From positions 37,731-101,730 of IMG/VR virus record IMGVR_UViG_3300009502_000023: a DNA stretch of 64,000 nt. The stretch is one strand, 5' to 3'. The DNA comes from a virus. Taxonomy: Duplodnaviria > Heunggongvirae > Uroviricota > Caudoviricetes. A program made the position numbers and the translations under genes. The notes under the pieces are model-generated. The model was given only the letters and a program-made list of their open reading frames with translations. It searched no databases and had not been told where the DNA came from. This document shows, piece by piece, positions 1,697 to 54,542 of this stretch; position 1 is the stretch's first letter; the number at the start of each line of letters is the position of its first letter.

Positions 1697-2572
1697 ATGA
1701 TAACATGTCCAATATGTGAACGAGAATTTTATCAAATGACAACTTCACATATAGTTCATCATAATTTAACATCCGATCAATTTAAAGAAATGTATCCTGA
1801 ATTTAAAATGTCTTCTCAAGAATATATTGATAAAATAACCGAAAAGAATAGAATTCGAGGTGAACAAAAGAGATTAAATAATGAAACATTATATTATCAA
1901 AATCCAAAACGCTGTTTAATATGTAATACAATCTTATCATATCATAAAAGTAATCAAAATATAAAAGGGTATTGTAGTAGATTATGTTCAGCAAAGACAA
2001 CTAACCACTCAGAGGAAACAAAACAAAAAATTTCAGAAGGAATGAACAGAAAATTTCAGTTGACAGGTAAATCGTTAAAAACAAAAATAAGTTATTGTAA
2101 AAATTGCAATACTGAAATGATTGGTATTTCGAAATTATATTGTTCTGATAAATGCCGAAAAGAACATTTACTGCCATTATGGCGAGAGAACGGAAGAATT
2201 CACGGATTGAAATCAGCAACTAAAAGATCACTTAGATCTAAAAATGAAATTGAGTTATATAGTCTTTTGAGTAATAATTATGTATGCACTCATAACGAAC
2301 CATTTTTTGGTGGTTGGGATGCTGATATAATTATACATGATTTGAAATTGGCAATCTTATGGAATGGACAATGGCATTATAGTCAAGTTATGCCGGGTCA
2401 TCATCTTTTACAGGTTCAAAATCGAGATATACATAAACTAAAATTGATTGATCAATTTGGATATAAATATATCATAGTTAAAGATTATGATAATAGAATG
2501 TCACCATTAAAAGCATATACTACAATATTAGATTTGATCAACAAGAATACTTTCAATGTAACTGTTTCATGA
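1697..2572 (+). CDS. homing-endonuclease-like protein (C2H2 Zn finger + NUMOD3-like HSEETKQKIS repeat + PD-(D/E)xK-like C-terminal domain)
   Basis: CPICEREF...HIVHH zinc finger; HSEETKQKISEGMN repeat; C-term WDADIIIHDLKLAILWNG; inserted between two phosphoesterase genes; GAATAAATTATAAAA motif upstream. Confidence 0.55.
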   Translation: MITCPICEREFYQMTTSHIVHHNLTSDQFKEMYPEFKMSSQEYIDKITEKNRIRGEQKRLNNETLYYQNPKRCLICNTILSYHKSNQNIKGYCSRLCSAKTTNHSEETKQKISEGMNRKFQLTGKSLKTKISYCKNCNTEMIGISKLYCSDKCRKEHLLPLWRENGRIHGLKSATKRSLRSKNEIELYSLLSNNYVCTHNEPFFGGWDADIIIHDLKLAILWNGQWHYSQVMPGHHLLQVQNRDIHKLKLIDQFGYKYIIVKDYDNRMSPLKAYTTILDLINKNTFNVTVS

Positions 2573-12313: not shown

Positions 12314-12330
12314 TCACAAGGAAATAGTTA

Positions 12331-13341
12331 ATGAGCGTGAAAGAACTTAGCTTTGAAGACGACGGAGAAGATTCTGTCGGCACAGAAGTGAAAGAAGGAA
12401 TACAAACTGTTAAATCAGGAGCAGAAAAGGGAACTTGGATTAACCAAAAACGAGTTCCCCTGACTCTTCCGTTAGTTTGTTTGATTCCCCATAAAATATT
12501 AATTGTAATTCGAAGTGTTGAAAAAATGATCATTAGTTCTGGAATGGGAACAATGGAAGTTGGAATGTTCCTTAACGGAAAAATGAATGAACAGGGTAAG
12601 TTGGTTCTGTCTGAAGATTTTTATATTCCCCAGCAAAAGGTTGGTGGGGCAAGTATTGATTTTCAGGAAGAACCACCTGATCTAAAATGGAATGGTGTAA
12701 TTCATCGTCACCCTGATGGATGTAAGAGCTTCAGTGGTACCGATGGAACTTATATTAATGCAAATTTTGAGTTTTCATTGTTGTATGTATGTAATGAAAT
12801 TACCCTTGGCATCTATAATTTTGACAATAACGGATTCAGATTTCAGGTTCCTTTAAAGACCGAGATCATGTATCCGATTATGGAACTGCAAGATAAGGAT
12901 GCAATCTTAGCTAAGATTACTAAGGTTCAGTATCCTTCTTCTACATCATCTGTGGTGGTTCAGCGTGGTTATGGTGGCGTACACCAGAATCATACTGGAA
13001 ATCCTCTTTGGTCAGACCGGAGAGATTTTAGACACCGAACATTACTTGCGGAAGATAATCAAATGGACTTTGATTCTTTCTTCCAACAAGAGGATAATCG
13101 AATTGTTGGGGATGATACTATCATCACTGATGATACGATTGAAGATGATAATGAAGAACTCTGCATTTGTAAAAAGTGTGGAGAAGTTCAGTGGATTGAG
13201 GACTATCCTCATTGCTGTGAAAGCTGTGAAGAGTTCCTTTCTGAAGATCAGGTTGAACTTGTCTCCACTCAGGATGTTCGTTGTTATGATGAACAGACCA
13301 GAGATAAGATTATACTGCTTCTTCAAGAGAAACAGGCATAG
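12331..13341 (+). CDS. JAB/MPN (JAMM) metalloprotease with C-terminal acidic region and zinc ribbon
   Basis: HRHPDGCKSFSGTD = HxHx7Sx2D JAMM motif at about 12703-12744; C-term CICKKCGEV...CCESCEEF. Confidence 0.65.
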   Translation: MSVKELSFEDDGEDSVGTEVKEGIQTVKSGAEKGTWINQKRVPLTLPLVCLIPHKILIVIRSVEKMIISSGMGTMEVGMFLNGKMNEQGKLVLSEDFYIPQQKVGGASIDFQEEPPDLKWNGVIHRHPDGCKSFSGTDGTYINANFEFSLLYVCNEITLGIYNFDNNGFRFQVPLKTEIMYPIMELQDKDAILAKITKVQYPSSTSSVVVQRGYGGVHQNHTGNPLWSDRRDFRHRTLLAEDNQMDFDSFFQQEDNRIVGDDTIITDDTIEDDNEELCICKKCGEVQWIEDYPHCCESCEEFLSEDQVELVSTQDVRCYDEQTRDKIILLLQEKQA

Positions 13342-13390: not shown

Positions 13391-13464
13391 GCACGCATAG
13401 TTCAATGGTAGAACTGGAGATTTCCAATCTTCAAATGTGGGTTCAATTCCCACTGCGTGCTCCA
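13391..13464 (+). tRNA. tRNA-Gly (anticodon UCC), CCA encoded
   Basis: manual fold: acceptor GCACGCA/TGCGTGC, D-arm GTTC-AATGGTA-GAAC, anticodon stem GGAGA/TCTTC with loop TTTCCAA, T-arm GTGGG-TTCAATT-CCCAC, discriminator T, CCA. Confidence 0.85.
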
Positions 13465-13481: not shown

Positions 13482-14552
13482 ATGAATAAGTTATGTGAAT
13501 GCGGTTGCGGAAAAGAAGTAATTAGTGATAAACATAGATTTATCCATGGACACAGTACCAAAGGAAGAAAAGATCTTTATATTAAACGAGCAAAAAATTT
13601 TAAAGAAAAACACGGAGTGGAATATCCGGGCCAACTGGAGAGCGTTCAGAATAAATCTAAACAAACATGTTTAAAAAAATATGGTAAAGAATATACATTC
13701 CAAACCAAATGTGTTAAAGATAAGATTAAGAAAAAATGCTTAGAGAACCTGGGTGTAGAAAATCCAAGTCAATCAGAAATTATTAAAGAGAAAAAAATAC
13801 AAACATATCTAGAAAGTCTAAATGTAGAAAACCCAAGTCAATCAGATATCATTAAAAAGAAAAAAAGTCAAACAAATTTAGAACATTGTGGTTTTGAAAA
13901 TCCAATGCAATCACAAAATGTTCAAGAAAAATCAAAACAGACAAATATAAATCATCGCGGTGTTGAATATCCGATGCAATCAGATGATGTTCAAGAAAAA
14001 TCAAAACAGACAAATATAAAGAATCGGGGCGTTGAATATCCATTTCGGTCAAAAGAAGTTCAGGAAAAATATAAACGGACATGTGTATATAACTATGGTG
14101 TTGATAATTTTGCAAGGACACCACAATTTAAAGAAATGGCTCGTATCAATAGTATCAGAATGATAGAAAATCAATTAGTTAATGGTGAACCAATGTGTCC
14201 GTTTATTGGTGATCATGAAAGACTATTTTTAAATGAACTTCAACACCACGTAACATATAAAATCATTCGAAATGATATTTCTTTTAGATATATTAAAGGT
14301 AGATTTCCCGATGGTCATATCTCAGAATTAAAACTTTTTATTCAGTTTGATGAGAGAGTTCATTTTGAAAATAAAGAAATGACCATATATAAAGAAGATG
14401 ATACAGATTGTACTCTTCAATTAGCATCTCTTGGTTATATTGTTTTTAGAGTATCTGAAAAACAATGGAATGAAAATAAAGAACAAGTTATCAATCAATT
14501 TAAAGGACTACTAGAATGTCTAAGAGAGCAGCAGTTGGCGACGCCCATTTAA
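13482..14552 (+). CDS. homing-endonuclease-like protein (CxCGCG Zn-ribbon + repeats + PD-(D/E)xK-like FPDGHISELK C-terminus)
   Basis: MNKLCECGCGKEV...GHS N-terminus shared with 5 paralogs; repeated K.Q.YLE.LGVENP.QS modules; 37-nt overlap with sbcD start. Confidence 0.6.
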   Translation: MNKLCECGCGKEVISDKHRFIHGHSTKGRKDLYIKRAKNFKEKHGVEYPGQLESVQNKSKQTCLKKYGKEYTFQTKCVKDKIKKKCLENLGVENPSQSEIIKEKKIQTYLESLNVENPSQSDIIKKKKSQTNLEHCGFENPMQSQNVQEKSKQTNINHRGVEYPMQSDDVQEKSKQTNIKNRGVEYPFRSKEVQEKYKRTCVYNYGVDNFARTPQFKEMARINSIRMIENQLVNGEPMCPFIGDHERLFLNELQHHVTYKIIRNDISFRYIKGRFPDGHISELKLFIQFDERVHFENKEMTIYKEDDTDCTLQLASLGYIVFRVSEKQWNENKEQVINQFKGLLECLREQQLATPI

Positions 14553-15544
14553 GCGGATTTCAATCTGATACGTTGGATAAAAAAGGTTTACCTAAACGTT
14601 TAGGTTTCATTATAAAGTCATTAGACTTTATAGTTGATTTTTGCAATCAAAAGAATATTTTTGATTTTGATTTTTTAGGCGATCTTGTAAATGATAAAAG
14701 TATTATTTATACCGTAGCACAAGATGCTTTTAAAGATTTTCTTGTTAGACGGAAGAATTGCAGATTCAGAATCATTAGTGGTAACCATGATCTATCCTCT
14801 ACTGGTGATTTGCAAAAAAGTGCAATATCTGTATTCTCGGAATATCCTAACGTGAAATGTTTTGTTGGCGGACCGGAAGTAATTGATAATATCACTTACA
14901 TTCCTTTCACCGAGAAATTTTTAGAAACAATTAAAATATCACCACCATCTGATATTTTAATCACACATCTTGGCTTGAATGAAGCACATCTTCAATCCGG
15001 GTTGTCTAAAGTTGATAAGATTTCAATTAAAGATTTATCTAAATTTAAATTAGCTTTGATGGGGCACTATCATCGCCCACAGGATTTTAGCAATGGAACT
15101 ACTCATGTGTGGTACGCGGGATCTTTAACGAATAAAGATTGGAACGATAAGAATGAGCAGAAAAGATTTCTTATCTATGATACTGAAACACTAGAAGTAG
15201 AATCTGTTCCTATTGATTGTGGTATTCCTCAATTTATTGAGTTGACTATCAATAATGAAACTGATAAGATAGAAATCTTAAAGCAAGCAGAAATTGCAAA
15301 AAATAATGGAAACAATGTTCGTATTAAAAATAAATCAGAAACAGTAATTAAAGATGAAGTATCTGGTGGCGTTTTAGTTCTTGAACAGCATGATGTGGAT
15401 ATTACCGATAGAGGTATTACCATATCAATGACCAAAGAAGAACAACTTAAGAAATATCTTTCGATTAAAGAAATTCCTGAAGTTGAATGCCCAGAATATT
15501 TGTCTCTGATTGCAAAGTATGATTTATTACACAAGGATGAATAA
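14516..15544 (+). CDS. sbcD: SbcD/Mre11-like nuclease (T4 gp47-like)
   Basis: motifs GDAHL, GDLVND, GNHD, GHYH of Mre11 phosphoesterase; directly upstream of SbcC-like gene. Confidence 0.8.
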   Translation: MSKRAAVGDAHLSGFQSDTLDKKGLPKRLGFIIKSLDFIVDFCNQKNIFDFDFLGDLVNDKSIIYTVAQDAFKDFLVRRKNCRFRIISGNHDLSSTGDLQKSAISVFSEYPNVKCFVGGPEVIDNITYIPFTEKFLETIKISPPSDILITHLGLNEAHLQSGLSKVDKISIKDLSKFKLALMGHYHRPQDFSNGTTHVWYAGSLTNKDWNDKNEQKRFLIYDTETLEVESVPIDCGIPQFIELTINNETDKIEILKQAEIAKNNGNNVRIKNKSETVIKDEVSGGVLVLEQHDVDITDRGITISMTKEEQLKKYLSIKEIPEVECPEYLSLIAKYDLLHKDE

Positions 15545-18132
15545 TGCAAGACATTTATATTGAAAAGATTCGTCTTAAGAATGTTAGATGTCACCATGAA
15601 ATGGAAATGGATTTTCCTGTAGATAGTTTTACCTTGATACTAGGAAAAAATGGAGCTGGAAAATCCACAATTCCAAAAGCCGTATGTATGGCATTATATG
15701 GTGATGATGGTTCTGTTAAAGGTGATAGATTATCCATATCTGATATGGTTAATGATAAGGTCAAGAAAGATCTTGAAATTGTTTTAAATTTCAGAGTTGT
15801 TGAAGGTGAACGAACCGATAACTATGAAATTCAACTTTACCAGGAACATAAGAAATATCATAATAAATTCTTTCTGTTAAAAAATGGAGTTGATATTTCT
15901 GGTAAGACAAAAACCGAAACATATGAAGCAATTGAACATCTTATTTATCCTCGTGATGTTTTCATGAATACCGTATACTTCACGCAGCAGGTAAAAGACT
16001 TCTTTACAGCGTTAACTAATTCTGAACAGAAGATGATATTCGATGCTATCTTATCAACTCAAGATTATCGTCTATACTATAACAATGCAGATAAAGCATT
16101 AAAGCAACTTACTGCGGAATATAATTCTGCTGATTCTATGTTATCTGGTATGCTTGCTGCAGTTGATATTAAGAAACAATCTATTACACAATTTCTTGCC
16201 AGTAAACAAAAGGCAGTTGATAATAATGCAGTCATTCTTTCTGATTTGACTCAGAAGAAAATCAATAAAGAGAATGAACTTCAAGTTCAGCAAGATGAAA
16301 AAGAAACTAACAATTTTGACCAGGTTAAAATTGATAGTTTAAATAGTAATCTTTATAAGTTACAGTCTGAACGAGATGCTATTCAATTGACTATTGATAC
16401 AGCAATTAAGAAGTTAAATACACAACAAGAGTTAGATGTATCAACAAAGAAATCTGAACTTCTTGATATCAAAGCTAAAGCCAGAGTAGAAATTAGTGAT
16501 AAGTTTAATAAAGAAATTGCCAGTCTAAATACTCAGTTAAATGTGATTCTCACATCAATTTCTGAAACTGAGAAATTATATGATACTTCTTCATTGTTTA
16601 AAGATCATAGTTCTTTTAATCTTGAAAAGCAAAAAGAGATTAATTTTGTAAATAAAGAACTTGGCGGATTAGATTCTTTATTCTCTACTCATATTATCGA
16701 AGATGAAAAAAGAGAAAGACTCAGAATCATAGAATCTAATATTCAAGATATTAAGGATAAAGCATCTAGAATTAAAGAGAATGTTGCTACTCTAAAATCT
16801 AAAATTTCTGGTTTAGAGAAAACCATTAATGAAGATGAATCTAAACTAAATGAACCAACACCGATATGTTCAAAGTGTCGAAGACCATTTCATGGTTCAG
16901 ATGGTGTTACTACAATTAAAGAATCTATTGAAGTTCTGAAAAAAGAAGTAGCTGATTTAAATTCTAAGATTCAAATTCATATACCAGAGATGGATTCTCT
17001 TAGAACTAATTATCAAGAAACTGCTGCTCTCAAGGATTCAACCAATACATCTTACAATGAAAAGATTCAAGAAGTTATCAATAAGAAAACATCTCAATCA
17101 GAAACTTTAATTCGTAAACGAGAGTTGATTCAATTGGAGATTATTGATCATAAGAATCAGATTGATTCTCGGGTTCAAGAAATGTTAGCTAAGAAAGAAG
17201 TTGCAACTACTGAACTTAAGAAGAAACAGATTCTTATTGAAAATCAAATCTCTGGTATTGATAAAACATTAGAAACTAAATTGGGTGTCATAGAACATAA
17301 TTATACAAAAGATATGGAATCCATTACACAAGAACATATTAAAAAGTATGATATTCTTCGTGAAAAGTGCAACTTGGATTTTAATAATCAAGTAATAACA
17401 TTAGATCTTCAAATAACCAATATCAGTACGGAGCTAGTAACACTTGATATTCAGCGCAAGAAGATGGTCGAAATAAATGCTGCTATCCAAACTTTAAACG
17501 CTGAATTAAAAATGTGCATGGAACGAATTATTGAGTGTCAAAATTTCGTATATGATGATACTCAAATTCAAAAACTAAGTTCTGATATTACTGATAACGA
17601 AGCGATTTTGAAAAATTTAGTAGACAAGAAAAAAGGAATTCAAAGAGAGATTAAGATTCTTGAATTTTGGAAAGAATCATTCTCTGATACCGGTATTAAG
17701 AGTATGTTGATTGATATGGCAATTCCTCATATGAATGAGTCCGTTGCTATTGCTCTAGAGAAGATTGTACCTGGTGTTTTCACAGTTTCTTTTGATACTT
17801 TGAAGATGACCAAATCGGGTGACGTCAGAGATAAATTCAATGTCAACATTCTTCATAATATTAAAGGTACGAATAGTCATAAGAAATTATCTGGTGGCGA
17901 AAAGAGAATAGTTGATTTATCCTGTATGGAAGCACTAAAATCTTTAGCTGAAAGATTATACGGGAAGAGAATTCACAATTCATTTTATGATGAAGCGTTG
18001 GATTCTTTAGATGATGATAGCTGTCAAGCATTTGGACAGGCAATCAGAATCTTATCCGCAGGAAAGAATATTACTTTAATTGCACATAAAGCTGCTGAAA
18101 ATGTTGAACCTGATAGAGTGTTCACACTGTAA
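15544..18132 (+). CDS. sbcC: SbcC/Rad50-like SMC ATPase (T4 gp46-like)
   Basis: Walker A GKNGAGKST, long coiled coil with CSKCRRPF zinc hook, signature LSGGEKR, Walker B FYDEALDSLDDD. Confidence 0.85.
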   Translation: MQDIYIEKIRLKNVRCHHEMEMDFPVDSFTLILGKNGAGKSTIPKAVCMALYGDDGSVKGDRLSISDMVNDKVKKDLEIVLNFRVVEGERTDNYEIQLYQEHKKYHNKFFLLKNGVDISGKTKTETYEAIEHLIYPRDVFMNTVYFTQQVKDFFTALTNSEQKMIFDAILSTQDYRLYYNNADKALKQLTAEYNSADSMLSGMLAAVDIKKQSITQFLASKQKAVDNNAVILSDLTQKKINKENELQVQQDEKETNNFDQVKIDSLNSNLYKLQSERDAIQLTIDTAIKKLNTQQELDVSTKKSELLDIKAKARVEISDKFNKEIASLNTQLNVILTSISETEKLYDTSSLFKDHSSFNLEKQKEINFVNKELGGLDSLFSTHIIEDEKRERLRIIESNIQDIKDKASRIKENVATLKSKISGLEKTINEDESKLNEPTPICSKCRRPFHGSDGVTTIKESIEVLKKEVADLNSKIQIHIPEMDSLRTNYQETAALKDSTNTSYNEKIQEVINKKTSQSETLIRKRELIQLEIIDHKNQIDSRVQEMLAKKEVATTELKKKQILIENQISGIDKTLETKLGVIEHNYTKDMESITQEHIKKYDILREKCNLDFNNQVITLDLQITNISTELVTLDIQRKKMVEINAAIQTLNAELKMCMERIIECQNFVYDDTQIQKLSSDITDNEAILKNLVDKKKGIQREIKILEFWKESFSDTGIKSMLIDMAIPHMNESVAIALEKIVPGVFTVSFDTLKMTKSGDVRDKFNVNILHNIKGTNSHKKLSGGEKRIVDLSCMEALKSLAERLYGKRIHNSFYDEALDSLDDDSCQAFGQAIRILSAGKNITLIAHKAAENVEPDRVFTL

Positions 18133-18911: not shown

Positions 18912-19328
18912 ATGACCCCACAAAAGACTCCCGTTCGAATCAACATCCAGCAATCTAATCAAAAGACAATTATTACATATGATATGAAAGTTGATAACAA
19001 TATTCGATCAATCGCAAGACGCGGACATGATATTGCTAAAACATTTAGAAGTATTGGTATTGTGTTTAAAAGAATCATTCCTGCATCTACTGATATATCG
19101 GTAAGAAAACAATTCAAGCTTCCTGTAGATTCTGATTTGATTTGTGTCGAACTGAAATACAACACTGACAAATCTGATTCAGATAAACTACTATTGATTA
19201 ATGATATTAAAGATCAACTTATGAATTTAAATTCTTATTCTGTGGTTAATGAAGGTATTTACAAATATGATTTATCAACACAGGTTTATAGATTATTACT
19301 AAAGATTAATGAAAATGTATCAAAATGA
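18912..19328 (+). CDS. hypothetical protein
   Basis: ORF 138 aa with AAGGAG RBS. Confidence 0.4.
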   Translation: MTPQKTPVRINIQQSNQKTIITYDMKVDNNIRSIARRGHDIAKTFRSIGIVFKRIIPASTDISVRKQFKLPVDSDLICVELKYNTDKSDSDKLLLINDIKDQLMNLNSYSVVNEGIYKYDLSTQVYRLLLKINENVSK

Positions 19329-24161: not shown

Positions 24162-24170
24162 CTTAAAATG

Positions 24171-24198
24171 GGGCGGGACCACAAACCGCCCTTCTTTC
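24171..24198 (+). terminator. short GC hairpin terminator
   Basis: GGGCGG ... CCGCCC followed by TTCTTT. Confidence 0.4.
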
Positions 24199-24219
24199 AG
24201 AATGATTTTATAGGTAATT

Positions 24220-25164
24220 ATGAATAAGTTGTGTAAGTGTGGTTGTGGTCAAAAAACAGTATTTAATAAAAATTCTAAACAATTTAATATGTTTATCAAA
24301 GGACACAGTAATAAAGGAAAAATTCATTCTGCTGAAACTAGAAATAAAATATCAGTTCGATTATCTGGTAAAGTACCATGGAATAAAGGTGCGCCTGCAT
24401 CAGAAGAATCTAAACTTAAAAATTCTATGGCTCACATCGGGAGAGAACATTCAGAAGAATCAAAAAGAAAAATATCTGAAAATAATGCTAAAACCATGTT
24501 GGGAAAGAACTGGTCTAAAGAAGTAAAACAAAAAATTAGAGAATCTAGATTGGGTAAAAAAGCATCTGCAGAAACTCGATTAAAAATGAGAGAGTGGCAA
24601 CTTGGAAAAATTATTCCAGAAATATCTAAAGAGAAAATAAAAGAAACATGGAATAATAAAAGCAAAACGGAATTAGATATTATAAAACAAAAAAGACAAC
24701 ATACGTTATTATATAATTATGGATTTGATAATTTTTCTAAAACACCACAATTTAAAGAAATGGCAAGAATTGCATCTATTAAAATGGTCGAAAACCAAAT
24801 AGCCAGTGGGGAACCACTATCTCCTAAAATTGGACCACAAGAACGATCATTTCTAAATGAACTCCAACAGTATACCTTGTATAAAATTATTCGAAACGAT
24901 TCTTCTTTTAGATATATTAAAGGTAGATTTCCAGATGGACATATATTAGAATTAAAACTTTTCATTCAATTCGATGAACGATTTCATTTCTCCGATATTG
25001 CTTGTAAAATCTATAAACAAGATGATATAGATTGTACTCTTCAACTTGCTTCTCTCGGTTATATCATTTTTCGAGTTTCAGAGAAACAATGGAAAGAAAA
25101 CAAAGAGAAAACAATTTCTGATTTCAAAAACTTTTTGGTACTGTTAGATCAAGGAAGAAACTAA
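24220..25164 (+). CDS. homing-endonuclease-like protein (Zn-ribbon + NUMOD3 repeats HSAETRNKIS/HSEESKRKIS + PD-(D/E)xK-like C-term) inserted between RNAP subunit genes
   Basis: MNKLCKCGCG N-term; multiple NUMOD3-like repeats; C-term FPDGHILELKLFIQFDE nearly identical to 13482 paralog. Confidence 0.6.
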   Translation: MNKLCKCGCGQKTVFNKNSKQFNMFIKGHSNKGKIHSAETRNKISVRLSGKVPWNKGAPASEESKLKNSMAHIGREHSEESKRKISENNAKTMLGKNWSKEVKQKIRESRLGKKASAETRLKMREWQLGKIIPEISKEKIKETWNNKSKTELDIIKQKRQHTLLYNYGFDNFSKTPQFKEMARIASIKMVENQIASGEPLSPKIGPQERSFLNELQQYTLYKIIRNDSSFRYIKGRFPDGHILELKLFIQFDERFHFSDIACKIYKQDDIDCTLQLASLGYIIFRVSEKQWKENKEKTISDFKNFLVLLDQGRN

Positions 25165-25177
25165 AGGGAGATATCAC

Positions 25178-30011: not shown

Positions 30012-30031
30012 TATTATTTAGGATGTGTGGT

Positions 30032-30202
30032 ATGAAATCAATGATAATAGACGAAGATCTTCATCGAATATTAAAAGTACTTTCAGCAGAAAAAGTTAGA
30101 TCAATTAGAAGTTTAATTTGTGAAGCTTTGATTGATTTATTTCGAAAGTATAATAAAGAAATTTCAAAAAATTTAGAGACTTATCATGAACGAAATACAT
30201 AA
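30032..30202 (+). CDS. small ribbon-helix-helix-like protein (56 aa, not in ORF track)
   Basis: MKSMIIDEDLHRILKVLSAEKVRSIRSLICEALIDLF resembles CopG/RHH fold; paralog at 51333. Confidence 0.45.
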   Translation: MKSMIIDEDLHRILKVLSAEKVRSIRSLICEALIDLFRKYNKEISKNLETYHERNT

Positions 30203-31022
30203 ATTATGCGAGTGCGGTTGTGGAAAAGAAGTAAAATTATCATCTAGTAGATTTTGTAGTGGTCATAATATGATCGGGGTGATAAAATCAAAAGAAACAC
30301 TTCTAAAAATAGCAAACTCAAATAGAGGACAAAAACGTTCTTTAGAAACAAAAGAAAAAATATCTAATTCGCATAAAGGAAAAAAACATTCGTCAGAAAC
30401 AATAGTAAAAATAGCAAACTCAAATAGAGGACAAAAACGTTCTATAGAAACAAAAGAAAAAATATCTAATACTAGTAAAGGAAGAGTAATGCCCCCTATA
30501 ACAGAAGAAACAAGAAAGAGAAGATCTATTTCTGCAACAGGAAGAATGCTCTCATTAGAAACAAAAGAAAAAATATCCAAAGCACATATAGGAAAAAGAT
30601 GTTCACCTGAACATATATTGAATATGAGTATTGCTCAAATGAAACGAGTAGAAAAACAATTATTTAATGGTGGACCAATGTATCCTTGTATGGGGAATAA
30701 TGAAACACAAATTCTTGATTGTTTTCAAACAGAATCAGGAGAGAGGATTCTAAGAAACGATCATGATTTATTTCTAAAATCGGGCAAATTTCCAGATGGT
30801 TATATTAAAAAATATAATCTGTGTATTGATATTCTTGAACCACACCATTTTAAACCAAATGGTGAATTAAGTGACAAAGATCAAAAACGAGAATTAAGAA
30901 TAGCTTTACATCTCGGTTGTATGATATATTATGTTCCAGAACAAGAATTTCTTTTTAATCAAAATAAAGAGATTCATCGATTCAAAGATTTTCTATTAAC
31001 ACTAGATGAGGATCGAAACTAA
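30186..31022 (+). CDS. homing-endonuclease-like protein, variant subfamily (Zn-ribbon + NUMOD3 repeats; C-terminal nuclease motif degenerate)
   Basis: MNEIHKLCECGCGKEV; repeats GQKRSLETKEKISNSHKGKKHSSETIVKIA; C-term FPDGYIKKYNL lacks the ELK of paralogs; sister of 51457 gene. Confidence 0.55.
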   Translation: MNEIHKLCECGCGKEVKLSSSRFCSGHNMIGVIKSKETLLKIANSNRGQKRSLETKEKISNSHKGKKHSSETIVKIANSNRGQKRSIETKEKISNTSKGRVMPPITEETRKRRSISATGRMLSLETKEKISKAHIGKRCSPEHILNMSIAQMKRVEKQLFNGGPMYPCMGNNETQILDCFQTESGERILRNDHDLFLKSGKFPDGYIKKYNLCIDILEPHHFKPNGELSDKDQKRELRIALHLGCMIYYVPEQEFLFNQNKEIHRFKDFLLTLDEDRN

Positions 31023-33148: not shown

Positions 33149-34225
33149 ATGATCGAGTGCAAAGAATGTGGAAAAGAATGTATTTCTGAATTTCATTTAG
33201 CTAAACATTTAGCAAGATATCCAATTAATCATTGTACTCCACAAGAGTATTATGATAAGTATATATTAAAAGATGATAATAATAAAAAGTGTCACCGTCG
33301 AACTTGTTTAAATCAGACATCTTTTAATGGTATTATTCATGGATATAATAAATACTGTTCACCTAGTTGTTGTAATAAAGAAAAAGCAACAGATCCTGAA
33401 TATAGATTGAAAAATAAAAATGCTCAGATTATAGCACAGAATAAACCAGAAGTAAAACAGAGAAGTAGAGATACAGCAAGTGCACAGTGGAAAGATCCCG
33501 ATGTAAGAAGACGAACATTATCTACGTATCAGCAAACTTTAAACAAACCAGGTATAAGAGAAAGATATTCAGAGGCATCAAAAAATAGATGGACTAATTC
33601 TGAATATAGAAATAAATATATACAATCAATGCAGAAACATTGGAAAAGTGAAGATTATAAAAAAGAATTTAAAAAAGCACATAACACAGAAGAAAGTAAA
33701 TTAAATCATTCGGTTGCAAGTAAGAAACTGTGGCAGAATCAACTATTTAGAGATAGGATGATTTCTTTTCTAAATAGTTCAGATCATAAAAAGTATATGA
33801 GTGATTTAGTTACTGTTAAAATGTTAAATGGAGAATGGAATCCTGGACATGGTTGCTATCATTGGGGGTACTGCTATTCTGAAAAGAATAACTCATTCAT
33901 GTTTCATAGATCAGGTACAGAACTCACTGCTTTTCAATTGTTGGATATAAACCCTTTAGTAAAATCATTCGATTATGAACCTTTAAGAATTAGTTATATT
34001 GATAAAGATGGAAATACAAAGTTTTGTATTCCTGATTTGATGATACATTATATAGATAATAGTTTGGAGTTGGTTGAAATAAAACCTGATGTTTTTGTCA
34101 ATGATGAAGACATTCAATTAAAACTTAAAGCTATGTCGGAGTATTGTATCAAAATTGGTATTAAATTTAGAGTGTGGTTAGAAAGTGAAATAGTAAACAG
34201 AAACACGAAACAGGAGATAGTTATC
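33149..34225 (+). CDS. homing-endonuclease-like protein (CKECGKEC Zn-ribbon, basic repeats, PD-(D/E)xK-like PDL...ELVEIKP) lacking its own stop codon
   Basis: ORF reads through in frame into the GC-rich gene starting 34226; AGAATAAATTAAAAGG motif and AAAGGAG RBS upstream. Confidence 0.5.
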
Positions 34226-34468
34226 ATGGCTACATATCAAGAGACGATGGATGCAATCAACACCAAGATCGATGCTTTCAAGGCCGCTGCTGCCACTGGC
34301 GTGGACAACAAGACTGCTGCCCTCCAAGCTCGCAAGTTGTCGATGGAACTTCGCGCTGATCTTCAGGGTTTCCGTAAGGCTAGTGTTGATAATGATCGCG
34401 CTAATACCAAGCACCGCGAGCCCAAGGCTGCAACAGCAACTGTTGCCGAACCTGCCGTTGTTGCCTAA
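34226..34468 (+). CDS. small (80 aa) Ala/Lys-rich GC-rich gene, probably very highly expressed
   Basis: own AGGAG RBS 9 nt upstream of ATG 34226; abrupt shift to GC-rich codon usage relative to upstream endonuclease body. Confidence 0.5.
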   Translation: MATYQETMDAINTKIDAFKAAAATGVDNKTAALQARKLSMELRADLQGFRKASVDNDRANTKHREPKAATATVAEPAVVA

Positions 34469-34540
34469 GTTACAGATCGAATAAAATAATAAGTAATAGT
34501 TAGTTTGATTATTTTTGTGGTGTCGGGTTATTTTCCACTA

Positions 34541-34960: not shown

Positions 34961-36007
34961 ATGAATAAGTTATGCGAATGTGGTTGTGGTATTGAAGTAA
35001 CCAATGAGAATAATAGGTTTTTAAAGGGACATAGTAGAAAAGGAAATAAAGAATCTTATATAAAACAAGCAAAAAATTACAAAGAAAAATATGGTGTTGA
35101 AAATCCATTTCAATTAGAACTAGTTAAAGATCAGATTAAACAAAAACATTTAGAAAATTTAGGTGTTGAAAATCCCAGTTATTCAAAAGAGATTAAAGAA
35201 AAGAAAACTAAAACAAGTTTAATAAGATATGGCTGTATGCACCCAATGCAATTTGAAAAATTTAAAGAGAAATCAAAGCAAACATGTAAAGAAAAGTTGG
35301 GTGTTGATTTTGCATTTCAATCAGAATCAGTCAAAGAAAAAATCAAACAAACCAGTTTTACAAAATTTGGTACTGATCATCCGATGAAATCAAAAGAAAT
35401 TCAAGATAAGAAAATTAAAACATTGATTGAAAATTTGGGATTTTCGAACCCAATGAAATCAGAAATATGCAAAAATAAAGCAAGAAAAACAAATATAGAA
35501 AAATTTGGCGTTTCGAATCCTAGTCAGTCTAAAATAGTTAAAGAACAGAAAAAACAAACATCAATAAAACATTGGGGTTTTGATAATTGGTCAAGAACAC
35601 CACAGGGAAGAAAACTACATCGAATTAATTCTATTAGAATGAGAGATGACCAATTAGCTAATGATGAACCAGCAATGCCGTGCGTTGGTATTGAAGAACG
35701 ACCATTTTTAAATACTCTTCAGCAATATACAAAATTTAATATCATTCGAAATGATAATTCTTTCAATCATGATGTTGGCAGATATCCAGATGGTCATATT
35801 CCCGAGTTAAAACTTTTCATTCAATTTGATGAAAAATTTCATTTTGAAAATAAAGAAATGACTATCTATAAAGAAGATGATCTAAATTGTACACTTGAAC
35901 TAGCATCTTTGGGATATATTGTTTTCAGAATTTCAGAAAAACAATGGAGAGAAAATAAAGAACACGTAATAGATCAATTTGAACTTATCATAACAGAACA
36001 CGAATGA
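34961..36007 (+). CDS. homing-endonuclease-like protein (Zn-ribbon + repeats + PD-(D/E)xK-like YPDGHIPELK) upstream of ligase
   Basis: MNKLCECGCGIEV; repeated K.Q.HLENLGVENP modules; C-term near-identical to 13482/24220 paralogs. Confidence 0.6.
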   Translation: MNKLCECGCGIEVTNENNRFLKGHSRKGNKESYIKQAKNYKEKYGVENPFQLELVKDQIKQKHLENLGVENPSYSKEIKEKKTKTSLIRYGCMHPMQFEKFKEKSKQTCKEKLGVDFAFQSESVKEKIKQTSFTKFGTDHPMKSKEIQDKKIKTLIENLGFSNPMKSEICKNKARKTNIEKFGVSNPSQSKIVKEQKKQTSIKHWGFDNWSRTPQGRKLHRINSIRMRDDQLANDEPAMPCVGIEERPFLNTLQQYTKFNIIRNDNSFNHDVGRYPDGHIPELKLFIQFDEKFHFENKEMTIYKEDDLNCTLELASLGYIVFRISEKQWRENKEHVIDQFELIITEHE

Positions 36008-51332: not shown

Positions 51333-51464
51333 ATGAAAAGTTTTATGATTAATGATGAAGATTTACATACTCAATTAAAACTTCTTGCTGCTAAATCTAA
51401 GAAAAGTATAATCGAACTATTAGAAGAAGCTATAAAACTTGTGTTGGAGAAATATCATGAATAG
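51333..51464 (+). CDS. small ribbon-helix-helix-like protein (43 aa, not in ORF track)
   Basis: MKSFMINDEDLHTQLKLLAAKSKKSIIELLEEAIKLV; paralog of 30032 ORF. Confidence 0.45.
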   Translation: MKSFMINDEDLHTQLKLLAAKSKKSIIELLEEAIKLVLEKYHE

Positions 51465-52176
51465 ACTTTGTGAATGCGGGTGTGGAAAAGAAGTTACTAA
51501 TGAAATAAATCGATTTATTTTTGGTCATGCTAATAGAGGCAAAACATTTATGATAGATGAAAAAACAAGACAAAAAATGTCAGAATCCCATACTGGTAAC
51601 AGACACTCAGCAGAAACAAAACAAAAGATGATAAATAATCATAGCCGACCACATCTTGGAAAAACACTTTCATCAGATACAATTAGTAAAATGTCTAAAT
51701 CTCATACTGGTAAGTATCATTCAAATGAAACTAGATTAAAAATGTCTATTAATAATGGAATGAAAGGAAAGAAACATACATTCGAAACAAGAATTAAGAT
51801 GAGTCTTGGCACAATAAAATATCTTGAAAATAATCATTATGGACCAAGACGAGGAAGAAATGAAAATCAAATTATTAATCAACTTCAAAAAGAAACCAAA
51901 ATAAATCTATTACAAAATGATTTTTCGATAGCGCATAAAATATCAAAATTTGCAGATGCTTATTCTCCTAAATATAATCTTGTTATAGAAGTATTAGAAC
52001 AAAGACATTTTGTTGGTGGAAAATTAACAGATTATGATAATGAAAGAGAATTAATTATATCTTCTAGATTGGGTTGTATGATATATTATATCATTGAACA
52101 GAAGTTTCTTTCTAACTCAGAAGAAGAAATTCAAAGATTTAAAAACTTTTTAACTGTATTGGATGAGAACAAATAA
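51457..52176 (+). CDS. homing-endonuclease-like protein, variant subfamily (start probably ATG 51457, MNRLCECGCGKEV)
   Basis: Zn-ribbon, NUMOD3 repeats (HSAETKQKMI, HSNETRLKMS); C-term LGCMIYYIIEQKF..IQRFKNFLTVLDE sister to 30186 gene. Confidence 0.55.
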   Translation: MNRLCECGCGKEVTNEINRFIFGHANRGKTFMIDEKTRQKMSESHTGNRHSAETKQKMINNHSRPHLGKTLSSDTISKMSKSHTGKYHSNETRLKMSINNGMKGKKHTFETRIKMSLGTIKYLENNHYGPRRGRNENQIINQLQKETKINLLQNDFSIAHKISKFADAYSPKYNLVIEVLEQRHFVGGKLTDYDNERELIISSRLGCMIYYIIEQKFLSNSEEEIQRFKNFLTVLDENK

Positions 52177-52201: not shown

Positions 52202-53533
52202 ATGGTAAATACCAAAGGCACGAATACTCATTTTGATATTGAATTTCAGGGCGATAATGATAAAATAAGTCAATCTTTAACTAATCATTATTCGACTATC
52301 AGAATTATCAATTCTGTTAAATCTATCTGGCCGGTTTTTCAACTTTACTTTATATGTGATAATCAATTATTTATTGAACAGAATATTTATGGCACAACAG
52401 ATATTACTTGTAAAATTTGGTATACCGGTCATGATGGGGAGAGACGTGGATCACCGGTTGAATATAAACTGATCATACTTGAATCTAAAATTGATCTTCC
52501 CGCTAAAGATCAAAAACCCGGAACGATAACTAGTCAGCAAGAACAACAAAGAATTCTTATAATGGTAACTTGCTTAGCTAAACCGGCGTATGAAGCAATG
52601 ACTCAATTTGTAAATAAGTTATGGGAAGATCCAGATGGATTAACAGGTACACAAAAAACACCTCTAGATATAGTCAAAGAAATATTAACTGATAATAATA
52701 TAGAATCTAGAATTTTTGATAATGGAAAGAATACAGATACTATTCAACAAATGATTATACCACCAATGACAGTTAGATCCGCGGTTGATTATATTAATCA
52801 AAACTATGGAATATTTTCTGGACCAGTTTTTAGATATGCAAATTATTCTGGTCAATTTTTATTATGGGATTTGAGTCAAATGTATTCACACCATAAAGAT
52901 TGTCCTTGGGTTAAGATGCACAAGTCTCCATCTCATTTTGATGATCCAACTACCTTTGATGAAATAAACAAACTAGCATCAAATACAACTGACGAATTTA
53001 TTATTTATGATTCTACAGAATCTATTCATCATTCGAATGCGAATCTTATTCGTTATGGATACGATAATATTTATATTTTTCATCCACATGAAGATATTGC
53101 TGTATTTCAAAAAAGAAATTTAGATGAGATTATTACTGATTATGGAATGTGGCACAAATCAGATCAAATGAAATATCATCCTGATTTAAGAAATCGTAAA
53201 ATGTATTATACCGATATGGTTGGGCATGAAATTGGTTCTGGATATGATGGTGAATATAATGATAATGTACTGACTCAAGACATGGCAACTAATTTTCAGA
53301 ATACTGCTGCAGTAAGAATACAACTATACAGAAATATAAAATTTCATCTGCTCCAAAAGGTTGGAGAAGTTTTATTTCTAGAACCATATTCTGAACATGA
53401 AAAATTTAGAGGAAGTAACTATCGAGGCGGTTATTTAATTTCAGACAGTGAGATTGTTTTTACAAGAGACAATGATAATATTATTTGTACCGCCACGCTG
53501 ACTGCATACCGGACATCACAAAGTTATGACTAA
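52202..53533 (+). CDS. hypothetical protein (possibly virion/structural)
   Basis: ORF 443 aa with AAGGAG RBS. Confidence 0.5.
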   Translation: MVNTKGTNTHFDIEFQGDNDKISQSLTNHYSTIRIINSVKSIWPVFQLYFICDNQLFIEQNIYGTTDITCKIWYTGHDGERRGSPVEYKLIILESKIDLPAKDQKPGTITSQQEQQRILIMVTCLAKPAYEAMTQFVNKLWEDPDGLTGTQKTPLDIVKEILTDNNIESRIFDNGKNTDTIQQMIIPPMTVRSAVDYINQNYGIFSGPVFRYANYSGQFLLWDLSQMYSHHKDCPWVKMHKSPSHFDDPTTFDEINKLASNTTDEFIIYDSTESIHHSNANLIRYGYDNIYIFHPHEDIAVFQKRNLDEIITDYGMWHKSDQMKYHPDLRNRKMYYTDMVGHEIGSGYDGEYNDNVLTQDMATNFQNTAAVRIQLYRNIKFHLLQKVGEVLFLEPYSEHEKFRGSNYRGGYLISDSEIVFTRDNDNIICTATLTAYRTSQSYD

Positions 53534-54542
53534 ATATAGTATGTGTAAATGTGGTTGTGGTAGAGAAGTAACTAATGAGAAGAATAAGTTTTTAAACGGG
53601 CATTGTTGGCGAGGAAAAAAATTATCAAAAGAACACAAAGAACAAATTTCTAAAACACATAATTTAGAAGAAGTTAAAGAAAAAACCAAACAAACATGTT
53701 TGAATAAATTTGGCGAGATTACTAATCTGGTATGTAGAGAAACTAAAGATAAAATTAAACAAACATGTTTAGAAAAATATGGAGTTGAAAGTTCAAATCA
53801 ATCAGAAGAAATTAAAGAAAAAAAGAAACACGCATGTTTAGAAAAATACGGTGTAGAATACCCATTGCAATCTAAAGAAATTCATGATAAATTTAAATAC
53901 ACAATGATAGAAAAATATGGAGTTGAATATACTTTACAATCAGAAGAATTAAAAGAAAAAATTAAACAAACATGTTTAGATGTTTATGGGGCTGAAGATC
54001 CAAACCAGTTAGAAGAAATCAAAGAAAAAATTAAACAAACATGTTTAAAACATTTTGGTGTCGAATGTCATTTACAATCAGAAAAAATAAAAGATCAAAT
54101 TAAACAAACATGTTTAGAAAAATATGGTGTTGATAACTATTCTAAAACATTTGAATTTAGAAAATTTGCAAGAGAACAAATGATTTCTTTTGTTGAATCC
54201 GGATTAAAAGATGGACAAGTTTTTTCACCAACAAAAGGTCGAAATGAAAAAGATTTTATATCAAAACTTCAATATGACGTATCTTATTTTATAGATAATG
54301 ATGCAAGAATTATTGGATATTTTCCAGATGGTTACATAAAAGAACTTAAGTTAGTTATTGAATTTGATGAACCGTGGCATAATAGAACATGGTCAAAGAA
54401 ACATGATATTCAGAAAGATGAAGATTATCAAAAAATAGGATTAAGAATATTTCGAGTTTCTGAACGAAACTGGATTGATAATAAAGAAAAAGTTATATCA
54501 GATTTTAAAATATTCATAAAGGAGATTTCAGAAAATGGCTAA
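53526..54542 (+). CDS. homing-endonuclease-like protein (Zn-ribbon + KQTCLEKYGVE repeats + FPDGYIKELK nuclease motif) abutting terminase gene
   Basis: MTKYSMCKCGCGREV; six K.KQTCL.KYGVE.P.QS repeats; overlaps terL start by 8 nt. Confidence 0.6.
   Translation: MTKYSMCKCGCGREVTNEKNKFLNGHCWRGKKLSKEHKEQISKTHNLEEVKEKTKQTCLNKFGEITNLVCRETKDKIKQTCLEKYGVESSNQSEEIKEKKKHACLEKYGVEYPLQSKEIHDKFKYTMIEKYGVEYTLQSEELKEKIKQTCLDVYGAEDPNQLEEIKEKIKQTCLKHFGVECHLQSEKIKDQIKQTCLEKYGVDNYSKTFEFRKFAREQMISFVESGLKDGQVFSPTKGRNEKDFISKLQYDVSYFIDNDARIIGYFPDGYIKELKLVIEFDEPWHNRTWSKKHDIQKDEDYQKIGLRIFRVSERNWIDNKEKVISDFKIFIKEISENG

What the first reader, a model, noticed from the sequence alone, without database searches (positions are those of the whole stretch)
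13482..14552. Family of at least eight freestanding endonuclease genes with Zn-ribbon + NUMOD3-like repeats + PD-(D/E)xK-like C-terminus, each parked next to an essential gene
The paralogues are at 1697, 13482, 24220, 30186, 33149, 34961, 51457 and 53526. They abut or overlap the tRNA/sbcD region, the rpoC-rpoB gap, the DNA ligase gene, the large terminase gene and the highly expressed small genes. They share the architecture MNKLCECGCG...GH, then 3-7 basic repeats (HSxETKxKIS or KQTCLEKYGVE), then FPDGxIxELKLxIxFDE. These genes make up roughly 12 percent of the window. That is an unusually heavy load of homing endonuclease genes. The domain combination (NUMOD3 with a PD-(D/E)xK-like nuclease instead of GIY-YIG/HNH) may be a distinct homing endonuclease family.
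Basis: partly seen in the sequence, partly recalled or inferred. Interest (0 to 1): 0.55.

Follow-up and report, generated by a model that had tools for sequence, protein, structure and literature searches.

The report
Vsr-like homing endonuclease gene swarm
An uncultured phage carries six copies of one selfish, mobile DNA-cutting gene family wedged between core genes; the family is a branch of an already described kind (Vsr-like or 'EDxHD' homing endonucleases), so this is a clear but fairly ordinary case.

The parts
13482..14552 (+). Focal gene w13482 (356 aa): free-standing Vsr-like homing-endonuclease-type gene, DUF7487 subtype
   Evidence: ORF confirmed. Pfam DUF7487 at 2.3e-30. Full-length AF2 model has pLDDT 96.1. 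The exact protein occurs on 13 metagenomic contigs.
13482..13553 (+). N-terminal Cys3-His knuckle (MNKLCECGCG...GH, residues 1-24); putative zinc site
   Evidence: C5, C7 and C9 are invariant and H24 is >=90% conserved in 67 homologues. The motif HMM hits only the six paralogues in the window. Zinc binding was not tested.
13560..14111 (+). Array of eight 23-aa DUF7487 repeats (one 15-residue helix plus loop each); inferred DNA-binding module
   Evidence: AF2 helices lie at 30-44, 53-67 and so on to 191-205, with a 23-residue period. The repeat consensus is xQSkEIKEKxKQTCLknYGVENP. 69-bp tandem repeats lie at 13754-14081 with 80-86% matches.
14106..14549 (+). C-terminal Vsr-like (EDxHD-type) nuclease domain; conserved E246, D277, E291, H294, D307
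14516..14552 (+). 37-nt overlap of the HEG 3' end with the start of the SbcD-like gene; the tail (…REQQLATPI) is an extension not present in the paralogues
   Evidence: Coordinates; alignment. The SbcD N-terminus is intact in HEG-less relatives.
24220..25164 (+). Paralogue w24220 (314 aa), NUMOD3 subtype, between RNAP beta' and beta. Its nuclease domain (24730-25161) is 69% identical to that of w13482.
   Evidence: An 83%-identical orthologue sits at the same junction in L005/L006, and the junction is empty in L007/L008.
30186..31022 (+). Paralogue w30186 (278 aa), NUMOD3 subtype; nuclease domain 30591-31019; 51/102-bp tandem repeats at 30293-30483
30023..30202 (+). 59-aa ORF with a ribbon-helix-helix-like sequence pattern, overlapping the w30186 start by 17 nt; homologues precede family members in four relatives (possible two-gene cassette)
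   Evidence: blastp against L009 54-aa ORF gives 48% identity, E 3e-19; against L005, L024 and L023 ORFs E 1e-7 to 2e-3. Source annotation gives weak Antitox_RHH and RH3_dom hits.
34961..36007 (+). Paralogue w34961 (348 aa), DUF7487 subtype, 13 nt upstream of the NAD-dependent DNA ligase gene; nuclease domain 35585-36004
51457..52176 (+). Paralogue w51457 (239 aa), NUMOD3 subtype; nuclease domain 51766-52173
   Evidence: The junction is empty in L023 and L025 and is occupied by a 42%-identical member in L024.
53526..54542 (+). Paralogue w53526 (338 aa), DUF7487 subtype. It overlaps the upstream 443-aa gene and the TerL gene by 8 nt each; nuclease domain 54135-54539; 69-bp repeats at 53738-54133.
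   Evidence: The junction is occupied in L023 and L024 and empty in L025 and L026.
1697..2572 (+). NOT a member: 291-aa ORF with a C2H2-like N-terminus, one weak NUMOD3-like stretch (E 0.039, below the Pfam threshold) and an unverified C-terminal motif (DADIIIHDLKLAILWNGQWH)
33149..34468 (+). NOT a member: 439-aa ORF with a C2H2-like N-terminus and a TnsA-like PD-(D/E)xK endonuclease domain
   Evidence: PF08722 at 2.5e-9; NF033179 at 2.9e-9.

Best explanation
The six paralogues are free-standing homing endonuclease genes of the Vsr-like ('EDxHD') kind. They live in an uncultured phage that encodes its own RNA polymerase beta and beta' subunits.

Each protein is bipartite. The N-terminal Cys3-His knuckle plus a tandem array of short basic helices (NUMOD3, or the longer DUF7487 repeat) is inferred to lie along a long DNA target. 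The C-terminal Vsr-type nuclease is inferred to cut it, using the conserved E246, D277, E291, H294 and D307, with Mg2+ and His as general base as in Vsr and I-Bth0305I.

The inferred life cycle is as follows. During co-infection with a related phage that lacks the gene, the enzyme cuts the empty allele at or near the junction. Recombinational repair then copies the gene, and some flanking sequence, into the recipient ('intronless homing', as for T4 Seg and Mob). The genes sit exactly at gene boundaries, often overlapping neighbouring ORFs by 8-37 nt, so host genes stay intact.

What is shown here:
- the paralogy;
- the fold and the conserved residues;
- patchy presence, replacement and decay at identical junctions;
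- purifying selection;
- recent repeat duplication.

What is inferred: cleavage activity, target sites, the homing mechanism and the DNA-binding role of the arrays.
For: Paralogy: HMM E-values of 1e-55 to 1e-73 for six ORFs only.

Fold:
- AF2 pLDDT is 94.4 for the domain and 96.1 for the full length.
- The top Foldseek PDB hit is the I-Bth0305I catalytic domain 3R3P (E 7e-4, probability 1.00, TM 0.70-0.74 normalised by the target length, 0.47-0.50 by the query).
- A profile search of PDB sequences puts the AbaSI Vsr-like domain first (E 0.0076), with the block IEvDEghHF aligned to I(Q/E)FDExxHF.
- Of 150 family representatives, 42 hit MTES_1575 (best 2e-11) and 32 hit DUF559 (best 1.5e-10).

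Residues:
- D277, E291 and H294 are invariant and E246 is >=90% conserved in 150 representatives.
- E, D, E, H and D are invariant in all six window copies.
- The D-to-H spacing of +17 equals D196 to H213 of I-Bth0305I (residue numbers from PMC3239194).

Mobility:
- At the beta'-beta junction a member is present in the window and L005/6. Distant members (37-42% identical to w30186) are present in L009, L011 and L014. None is present in L007/L008 (12-nt gap) or in a 100.6-kb JGI contig.
- At the p336-SbcD junction the window, L010, L011 and L014 are occupied, by members only 25-38% identical to one another. L015 and L019 are empty.
- At the TerL junction L023 and L024 are occupied and L025 and L026 are empty. 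At the w51457 junction L024 is occupied and L023 and L025 are empty.
- The L019 beta'-beta gap holds a decayed remnant of the nuclease domain with an internal stop (E 2e-12), and L016 holds a weaker frameshifted trace.
- Relatives carry members at sites that are empty in the window.

Selection and age: for w24220 against its L005 orthologue, dN/dS is 0.24 and dS is 0.44, against dS 1.2-1.4 for the flanking rpoC, rpoB and p166. DNA identity is 85.6% against 80.5-81.8%.

Modularity: the w24220 nuclease domain is 69% identical to that of w13482, but its array is NUMOD3 rather than DUF7487.

Flank mosaicism: in L010 rpoC is 97% identical to the window's, while SbcD, next to a different family member, is 61%.

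Precedent: Vsr-like homing endonucleases with N-terminal NUMODs, including free-standing ones and Hef, are described in PMC2677866 and PMC3239194.
Against: - No cleavage, target site or homing event is demonstrated. The phage is uncultured and has no close sequenced isolate.
- Sequence similarity to solved Vsr-like domains is weak (17-22% identity; PDB profile E 0.0076 at best). Family assignment rests mainly on predicted structure and motif pattern.
- The residue-by-residue superposition on 3R3P or Vsr was not done.
- Empty junctions could in principle reflect precise deletions rather than never-invaded alleles.
- The dS contrast is noisy. Flank dS above 1 is near saturation, and the HEGs are compositionally odd (26-30% GC against 32.8% for the window).
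- w30186 and w51457 lack the near-invariant D290 (ILE and VLE instead of FDE) and might be weaker or inactive.
Confidence: 0.8

Rival explanations
1. The genes are retained because they benefit the phage rather than being merely selfish. They could exclude markers of competing phages or degrade co-infecting genomes. They could also promote recombination or amplification of neighbouring loci, as reported for T4-type SegB. Under this reading the nuclease activity is the same, but selection acts at the phage level.
For: Purifying selection on w24220 (dN/dS 0.24). The same junctions are repeatedly occupied by different members. One genome segment holds six intact copies, each with all catalytic residues. 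Literature precedent for marker exclusion comes from PMC2988022, and for SegB-driven amplification from the abstract of PMC13096335.
Against: Clean absences and a decayed remnant in close relatives show that the genes are dispensable. Purifying selection is also expected for an actively homing selfish element. This reading is not mutually exclusive with the main explanation.
Confidence: 0.12
2. They are DNA-binding regulators or architectural proteins whose Vsr-like domain is catalytically dead or is used only for binding. They would be positioned to control the adjacent operons (RNAP, ligase, terminase).
For: Long basic repeat arrays. Tight translational coupling or overlap with neighbouring genes. 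An ORF with a ribbon-helix-helix-like sequence is associated with some copies. w30186 and w51457 lack D290.
Against: D277, E291 and H294 are invariant across 150 representatives clustered at 50% identity. The nuclease domain has the lower dN/dS (0.20 against 0.29 for the array). Presence and absence at the same junction in relatives with intact neighbouring operons argues against a required regulatory role.
Confidence: 0.05
3. They are very-short-patch (T:G mismatch) repair endonucleases, as some source annotations name their homologues.
Against: Six divergent copies per 64 kb, each with a different long DNA-binding array. Patchy, replaceable, intergenic distribution (and others). The best Foldseek match is a homing endonuclease. 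In place of Vsr's H64-G-C-F-W-H69 block with its intercalating residues, these proteins have (Q/E)FDExxH (Vsr motif from PMC2677866, and from my own recollection of the E. coli Vsr sequence).
Confidence: 0.02

Closest known systems
Vsr-like / 'EDxHD' homing endonuclease family (I-Bth0305I, PDB 3R3P; Dassa et al. 2009 PMC2677866; Taylor et al. 2011 PMC3239194)
   Different: Only ~17% identity to I-Bth0305I. No significant sequence-profile hit to 3R3P. I-Bth0305I is intron-encoded and uses two NUMOD2/HTH-like motifs. The window proteins instead have a Cys3-His knuckle and 3-8 tandem NUMOD3 or DUF7487 repeats. Their central catalytic block (Q/E)xDExxH resembles AbaSI and PvuRts1I more than I-Bth0305I (Asn208).
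Hef and 'Hef-like' free-standing endonucleases of T4-related and Ackermannviridae phages (e.g. F-LimVIII of Dickeya phage LIMEstone1, PMC3296691)
   Same: F-LimVIII contains DUF7487 repeats (E 1.6e-25) followed by a weak MTES_1575/DUF559-like domain. It is free-standing, between tail tube and tail sheath genes. w13482 matches it by tblastn (E 5e-9, residues 88-344). According to PMC3239194, Hef-type enzymes belong to the Vsr-like family. According to PMC2988022, hef of phage U5 cleaves nrdB.
   Different: F-LimVIII is 596 aa, with extra N- and C-terminal regions. Its nuclease block is ExNGxxWH rather than (Q/E)xDExxH. Identity is about 24%, and hhalign to the window's nuclease profile is weak (E 0.0047). 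The original Hef sequence and paper were not available here.
T4 Seg (GIY-YIG) and Mob (HNH) free-standing homing endonucleases
   Same: They work alike. All are intergenic genes between conserved phage genes and are patchy among relatives. Different endonucleases replace one another at the same locus, NUMOD3-type DNA-binding modules are used, and the genome load is about 10-12% (PMC2988022).
   Different: The catalytic domain is unrelated, and the domain order is reversed: the nuclease is N-terminal in I-TevI-like enzymes (PMC3239194).
Vsr / DUF559 / MTES_1575 / AbaSI-PvuRts1I cleavage domains
   Different: Those are repair or restriction enzymes with other partner domains, and they are not mobile genes.
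FASTK / RAP-domain organellar proteins
   Different: These are eukaryotic RNA-binding proteins. The repeats are unrelated in sequence. The resemblance is probably only at the level of the nuclease superfamily.

Membership tests
Vsr-like / EDxHD homing endonucleases | C-terminal catalytic domain with the Vsr-type variant of the PD-(D/E)xK fold | tested here: met
Vsr-like / EDxHD homing endonucleases | Conserved composite motif E, D, x, H, D (I-Bth0305I D196, N208, H213, D222 plus an upstream E) | tested here: met
   D277, E291 and H294 are invariant across 150 representatives and E246 is >=90% conserved. D307 is invariant in the six window copies and >=90% conserved in 105 homologues. D277 to H294 is +17, as for D196 to H213. 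The match is by pattern and spacing only; no 3D superposition of side chains was done.
Vsr-like / EDxHD homing endonucleases | N-terminal modular DNA-binding region of NUMOD type | tested here: met
   NUMOD3 at E 4e-13 to 8e-12 in w24220, w30186 and w51457. DUF7487 in the other three; its repeat profile aligns in register with NUMOD3 (S-x-E-x-K-x-K, hhalign P 1e-3).
Vsr-like / EDxHD homing endonucleases | Significant sequence homology to established members | tested here: inconclusive
   No hit to 3R3P in PDB profile searches at E <= 10. The link runs through DUF559 and MTES_1575 hits of family members and through F-LimVIII.
Vsr-like / EDxHD homing endonucleases | Site-specific double-strand cleavage of the element-free allele | not testable with these tools
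   Needs protein expression and cleavage assays.
Free-standing homing endonuclease genes (functional class) | Sporadic presence or absence at the same locus among otherwise syntenic relatives | tested here: met
   Four junctions are each occupied in some relatives and empty in others.
Free-standing homing endonuclease genes (functional class) | Signs of the invasion, decay and loss cycle, and of horizontal transfer | tested here: met
   Decayed remnant in L019 (E 2e-12, internal stop). HEG dS of 0.44 against flank dS of 1.2-1.4. Distant family members occupy the same junction.
Hef-like endonucleases (F-LimVIII type) | DUF7487 repeats followed by a DUF559/MTES_1575-like nuclease | tested here: met
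   F-LimVIII: DUF7487 1.6e-25, MTES_1575 1.2e-4, DUF559 4.7e-4. w13482, w34961 and w53526: DUF7487 2e-30 to 2e-40, MTES_1575 and DUF559 6e-5 to 7e-3.
Hef-like endonucleases (F-LimVIII type) | Homology to Hef of phage U5 itself | not tested
   The Hef sequence and the paper (PMC1275590) were not available. The link rests on the LIMEstone authors' classification and on the statement in PMC3239194.
Vsr mismatch-repair endonucleases | Single-domain enzyme with a Zn site and intercalating F67/W68, single copy, repair context | tested here: not met
   The proteins are multi-domain and present in six copies at intergenic, patchy positions. The block (Q/E)FDExxH replaces H-G-C-F-W-H (Vsr residues).

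The most novel reading that the evidence does not exclude
The DUF7487 array may be a previously uncharacterised modular DNA-recognition domain.

What was observed:
- The array consists of tandem 23-residue helix-loop units, up to 9 per protein.
- It is predicted at pLDDT >95.
- Conserved positions Q2, S3, K7, K9, K11, T13 and G19 alternate with hypervariable positions 1, 10, 12, 14 and 16.
- The array grows by recent 69-bp tandem duplication.

The novel reading is that each repeat reads a fixed number of base pairs through a few variable residues, as TALE repeats do. Array shuffling and swapping onto a common Vsr-like nuclease would then be how the family retargets to new junctions. A small partner protein with a ribbon-helix-helix-like sequence may control some cassettes.
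Probability: 0.15. Interest if true: 0.65.

Novelty: new member of a known kind. Interest (0 to 1): 0.3.

Why it matters
For annotation, several hundred to over a thousand metagenomic protein clusters can be read as Vsr-like homing endonucleases (1,447 representatives at E <= 1e-3 and 540 at E <= 1e-10). Many are currently unnamed or mislabelled 'very-short-patch-repair endonuclease'. DUF7487 can be read as their NUMOD3-related DNA-binding array.

For phage evolution, the clade is a compact natural example of homing-endonuclease turnover. The same gene junctions are found empty, occupied, re-occupied by distant members, or carrying decayed remnants. Flank divergence drops next to the insert. 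All of this occurs in an uncultured lineage that encodes its own multisubunit RNA polymerase.

For technology, long tandem-repeat arrays fused to a compact nuclease are worth a look as specificity modules. This is speculative until a DNA-bound structure or a specificity profile exists.

Tried and rejected
- Megablast of 8 kb against the phage collection gave no match.
- tblastn of beta' found only ~27%-identical hits, many of them bacterial-like. There is therefore no cultured relative to compare insertion sites with.
- IMG/VR scans with single proteins (SbcD, the beta N-terminus) found no relatives. A metagenome scan with an SbcC alignment and look-ups of beta' and TerL homologues were used instead.
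- Sigma-70 promoter and terminator scans around the genes were no better than shuffles. The only clear terminator is at 29945-29980, upstream of the small ORF and w30186 pair.
- PDB sequence-profile searches gave only borderline hits (AbaSI at E 0.19, then 0.0076). Fold comparison was therefore decisive.
- Whether 1697 belongs to the family was tested. The HMM gave E 0.34, hhalign gave probability 1.9%, and BLASTP to F-LimVIII was not significant. Only a short in-register motif is shared, so it was rejected as a member.
- 33149 is a TnsA-like nuclease, not a member.
- An attempt to obtain the I-Bth0305I sequence through a RecA tblastn failed, because phage 0305phi8-36 was not among the listed hits.
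- Sandegren 2005 (Hef) is not held in the library.
- No paper mentions DUF7487.
- A Pfam scan of 20 further window ORFs found no HNH, GIY-YIG or LAGLIDADG genes.
Full report
OBSERVATION

The window is 64 kb with 32.8% GC. It is phage-like and encodes the following genes:
- TerL at 54535-56307;
- full-length RNA polymerase beta' at 21312-24161 and beta at 25178-28465;
- an NAD-dependent ligase at 36021-37892;
- SbcD- and SbcC-like proteins at 14516-18132;
- GTP cyclohydrolase I;
- a QueC-like protein.

An HMM built from the C-terminal ~140 residues finds exactly six of them in a six-frame translation of the window, at E 3.5e-55 to 6.9e-73. An HMM of the N-terminal CxCGCG...GH motif finds the same six.

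The six are 13482-14552, 24220-25164, 30186-31022, 34961-36007, 51457-52176 and 53526-54542.

The other two are different proteins.
- ORF 1697-2572 has only a marginal C-terminal match: E 0.34, hhalign probability 1.9%, and nothing significant against F-LimVIII.
- ORF 33149-34468 has a TnsA-like endonuclease domain (PF08722 at 2.5e-9; NF033179).

The '12% of the window' figure is arithmetically right for eight ORFs (7,833 nt). For the real family it is 8.8%.

ANATOMY

Each family protein has three parts.

1. N-terminal knuckle. C5, C7 and C9 are invariant and H24 is nearly so in 67 homologues. This is a plausible Cys3-His zinc site, but it was not tested.

2. Tandem repeat array. There are two types.
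- w24220, w30186 and w51457 have 17-residue NUMOD3 repeats.
- w13482, w34961 and w53526 have 23-residue DUF7487 repeats, with consensus xQSkEIKEKxKQTCLknYGVENP.

The full-length AF2 model of w13482 has pLDDT 96.1. It shows eight 15-residue helices with an exact 23-residue period.

The two repeat profiles align in register over S-x-E-x-K-x-K (hhalign P about 1e-3). I therefore read DUF7487 as a longer relative of NUMOD3.

At the DNA level the arrays carry 69-bp repeats (13754-14081 and 53738-54133) and 51/102-bp repeats (30293-30483), with up to 86-91% matches. This indicates recent unit duplication. Homologues carry 1 to 9 detectable units.

3. C-terminal domain. AF2 gives pLDDT 94.4 with an alpha/beta nuclease core.
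- Foldseek against the PDB ranks the I-Bth0305I catalytic domain (3R3P) first, at E 7e-4 and probability 1.00. RAP domains, DUF559 (3HRL) and Vsr follow.
- A sequence profile of 150 representatives aligns I(E/Q)FDExxHF with the IEVDEGHHF block of the Vsr-like cleavage domain of AbaSI (E 0.0076).
- D277, E291 and H294 are invariant and E246 is at least 90% conserved in those 150.
- E246, D277, E291, H294 and D307 are invariant in all six window copies.
- The D-to-H spacing (+17) equals that of D196 to H213 in I-Bth0305I (numbers from PMC3239194).

The first refutation condition, no nuclease fold, is therefore not met.

DISTRIBUTION AND MOBILITY

The exact w13482 protein occurs on 13 metagenomic contigs, all with the same neighbourhood. 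More distant relatives were reached through homologues of beta', TerL and SbcC. Gene order is conserved among them, but occupancy of the junctions is not.

Junction p336/tRNA-Gly to SbcD:
- w13482 is present in the window.
- Members only 25-38% identical to the window paralogues are present in L010, L011 and L014.
- L015 (125-nt gap) and L019 (226-nt gap) have none.

Junction beta' to beta:
- w24220 is present in the window, and an 83%-identical orthologue is present in L005/L006.
- A different lineage (37-42% identical to w30186) is present in L009, L011 and L014.
- L007/L008 (12-nt gap) and a 100.6-kb JGI contig (10-nt gap) have none.
- L019 holds a decayed remnant of the nuclease domain with an internal stop (E 2e-12). 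L016 holds a weaker frameshifted trace.

Junction p443 to TerL:
- Occupied in the window, L023 and L024.
- Empty in L025 (1-nt gap) and L026 (16-nt gap).

Junction p307 to p443:
- Occupied in the window and L024.
- Empty in L023 and L025.

Relatives also carry members at sites that are empty in the window. These are L011 2448-3365, L023 13001-13975, L024 8736-9701 and L026 from 15230. Elsewhere, members lie between glycosyltransferase genes.

The second refutation condition, conservation at the same positions in all relatives, is therefore not met either.

Three further observations fit mobility.
- For w24220 against its L005 orthologue, dN/dS is 0.24, so the gene is functional. Its dS is 0.44, against 1.2-1.4 for the flanking rpoC, rpoB and p166. 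Nucleotide identity is 85.6% against 80.5-81.8%. This suggests the endonuclease copies share a more recent ancestor than their host genomes. The flank dS is near saturation, so the contrast is only suggestive.
- L010 is 97% identical to the window in beta' but only 61% in SbcD, next to a different family member. This is the kind of mosaic boundary that the paper titled 'Nuclease genes occupy boundaries of genetic exchange between bacteriophages' (PMC10448857) reports.
- The nuclease domain of w24220 is 69% identical to that of w13482 although their arrays are of different types. Arrays and nuclease domains are therefore exchanged.

MECHANISM

The mechanism below is inferred, not shown. By analogy with I-Bth0305I and with T4 Seg and Mob enzymes, the array positions the protein on a long target in the allele that lacks the gene. 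The Vsr-like domain then makes the break, and recombinational repair copies the gene and adjacent sequence.

The genes are inserted exactly at ORF boundaries. w13482 runs 37 nt into SbcD, and its C-terminal tail is an extension absent from its paralogues. w53526 overlaps both neighbours by 8 nt. Host genes therefore remain intact.

COMPARISON WITH WHAT IS KNOWN

Dassa et al. 2009 (PMC2677866) predicted a Vsr-like homing endonuclease family in metagenomic phage-like loci. It included free-standing genes, and two members had tandem NUMOD3 repeats N-terminal to the nuclease.

Taylor et al. 2011 (PMC3239194) showed activity and solved the structure of I-Bth0305I. They named the family EDxHD and stated that it includes phage Hef-type endonucleases.

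The LIMEstone1 authors classed F-LimVIII as Hef-like (PMC3296691). I find that F-LimVIII has DUF7487 repeats (1.6e-25) followed by a weak MTES_1575/DUF559-like domain. w13482 matches it by tblastn (E 5e-9).

The architecture is therefore not new. The window proteins form a divergent subfamily of at least 1,447 representatives at 50% clustering. Of the top 150, 101 have DUF7487 and 35 have NUMOD3. Many homologues are unnamed, and some are labelled 'very-short-patch-repair endonuclease'.

The load is comparable to T4 (15 genes, 11% of coding potential; PMC2988022) and to LIMEstone1 (14 genes, 10%).

WHAT REMAINS OPEN

A small ORF of about 55 aa, with a sequence pattern like a ribbon-helix-helix protein, precedes a subset of family members. 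These are window 30023-30202 and ORFs in L005, L009, L023 and L024.

Neither point changes the classification, but both are the parts worth an experiment.

VERDICT

- Observation: partly confirmed (six paralogues, not eight).
- Interpretation: partly supported. The genes are mobile Vsr-like homing endonuclease genes, but they are not a distinct family.
- Novelty: new members of a known kind.
- Interest: 0.3.

Noticed in passing
window 30023-30202; L005 7918-8088; L009 7973-8137; L023 13968-14135 (-); L024 9694-9861 (-): A ~55-aa ORF with a ribbon-helix-helix-like sequence (MKSxxIDEDLHxxLKxLSAE...KY) sits immediately upstream of, or overlapping, a subset of family endonuclease genes. This suggests a two-gene cassette. 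The window's w24220 lacks it, although the 83%-identical orthologue in L005 has it.
   Followed up: partly
L019 12290-12585; L016 9350-9595: The beta'-beta intergenic gaps of two 'empty' relatives contain decayed fragments of the endonuclease C-terminal domain. L019 scores E 2e-12 and has an internal stop; L016 is weak and frameshifted.
   Followed up: yes
window 21312-28465: The phage encodes full-length bacterial-type RNA polymerase beta' (949 aa) and beta (1095 aa), in the order beta' then beta. Thousands of metagenomic homologues exist, on contigs up to 330 kb. No isolate in the phage collection is closer than ~27% identity. This appears to be a large uncultured clade.
   Followed up: partly
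window 3314-4537, 28422-29102, 44859-46709: A radical-SAM protein, GTP cyclohydrolase I and a GATase-QueC-like fusion suggest a 7-deazaguanine DNA modification pathway. This could bear on the self versus non-self behaviour of the nucleases.
   Followed up: no
window 11561-13341 and 19325-19867: Two ThiF (E1-like) proteins are present. The 336-aa ORF next to the first contains an HxH...S..D stretch (HRHPDGCKSFSGTD) that resembles a JAB/MPN metalloprotease motif. Together these may form a ubiquitin-like conjugation or deconjugation module. The gene pair is conserved in relatives.
   Followed up: no
window 13391-13464; L010 740-815; L011 7043-7116: A tRNA-Gly(tcc) lies just upstream of the endonuclease at the p336-SbcD junction. 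It is present in the window and its two closest relatives but absent from L014, L015 and L019. It may travel with, or mark, the variable junction.
   Followed up: partly
L010 against the window (p336 to rpoC): Protein identity varies sharply along a syntenic stretch: rpoC 97%, p166 93%, p180 91%, p210 86%, SbcC 73%, p175 68%, SbcD 61%, p336 79%. The lowest value is next to a non-orthologous endonuclease. This suggests recombination boundaries at the HEG.
   Followed up: partly
window 34540-34610: A 36-bp tandem repeat (2 copies, 88% matches) lies in the non-coding or small-ORF stretch between 33149-34468 and w34961.
   Followed up: no
window 33149-34468: This TnsA-like nuclease ORF has a C2H2-like N-terminus and W-containing basic repeats. 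It also has an Ala/Lys-rich C-terminal tail that weakly resembles histone-like Hc1. It may be a second, unrelated mobile nuclease gene. Its distribution in relatives was not examined.
   Followed up: no
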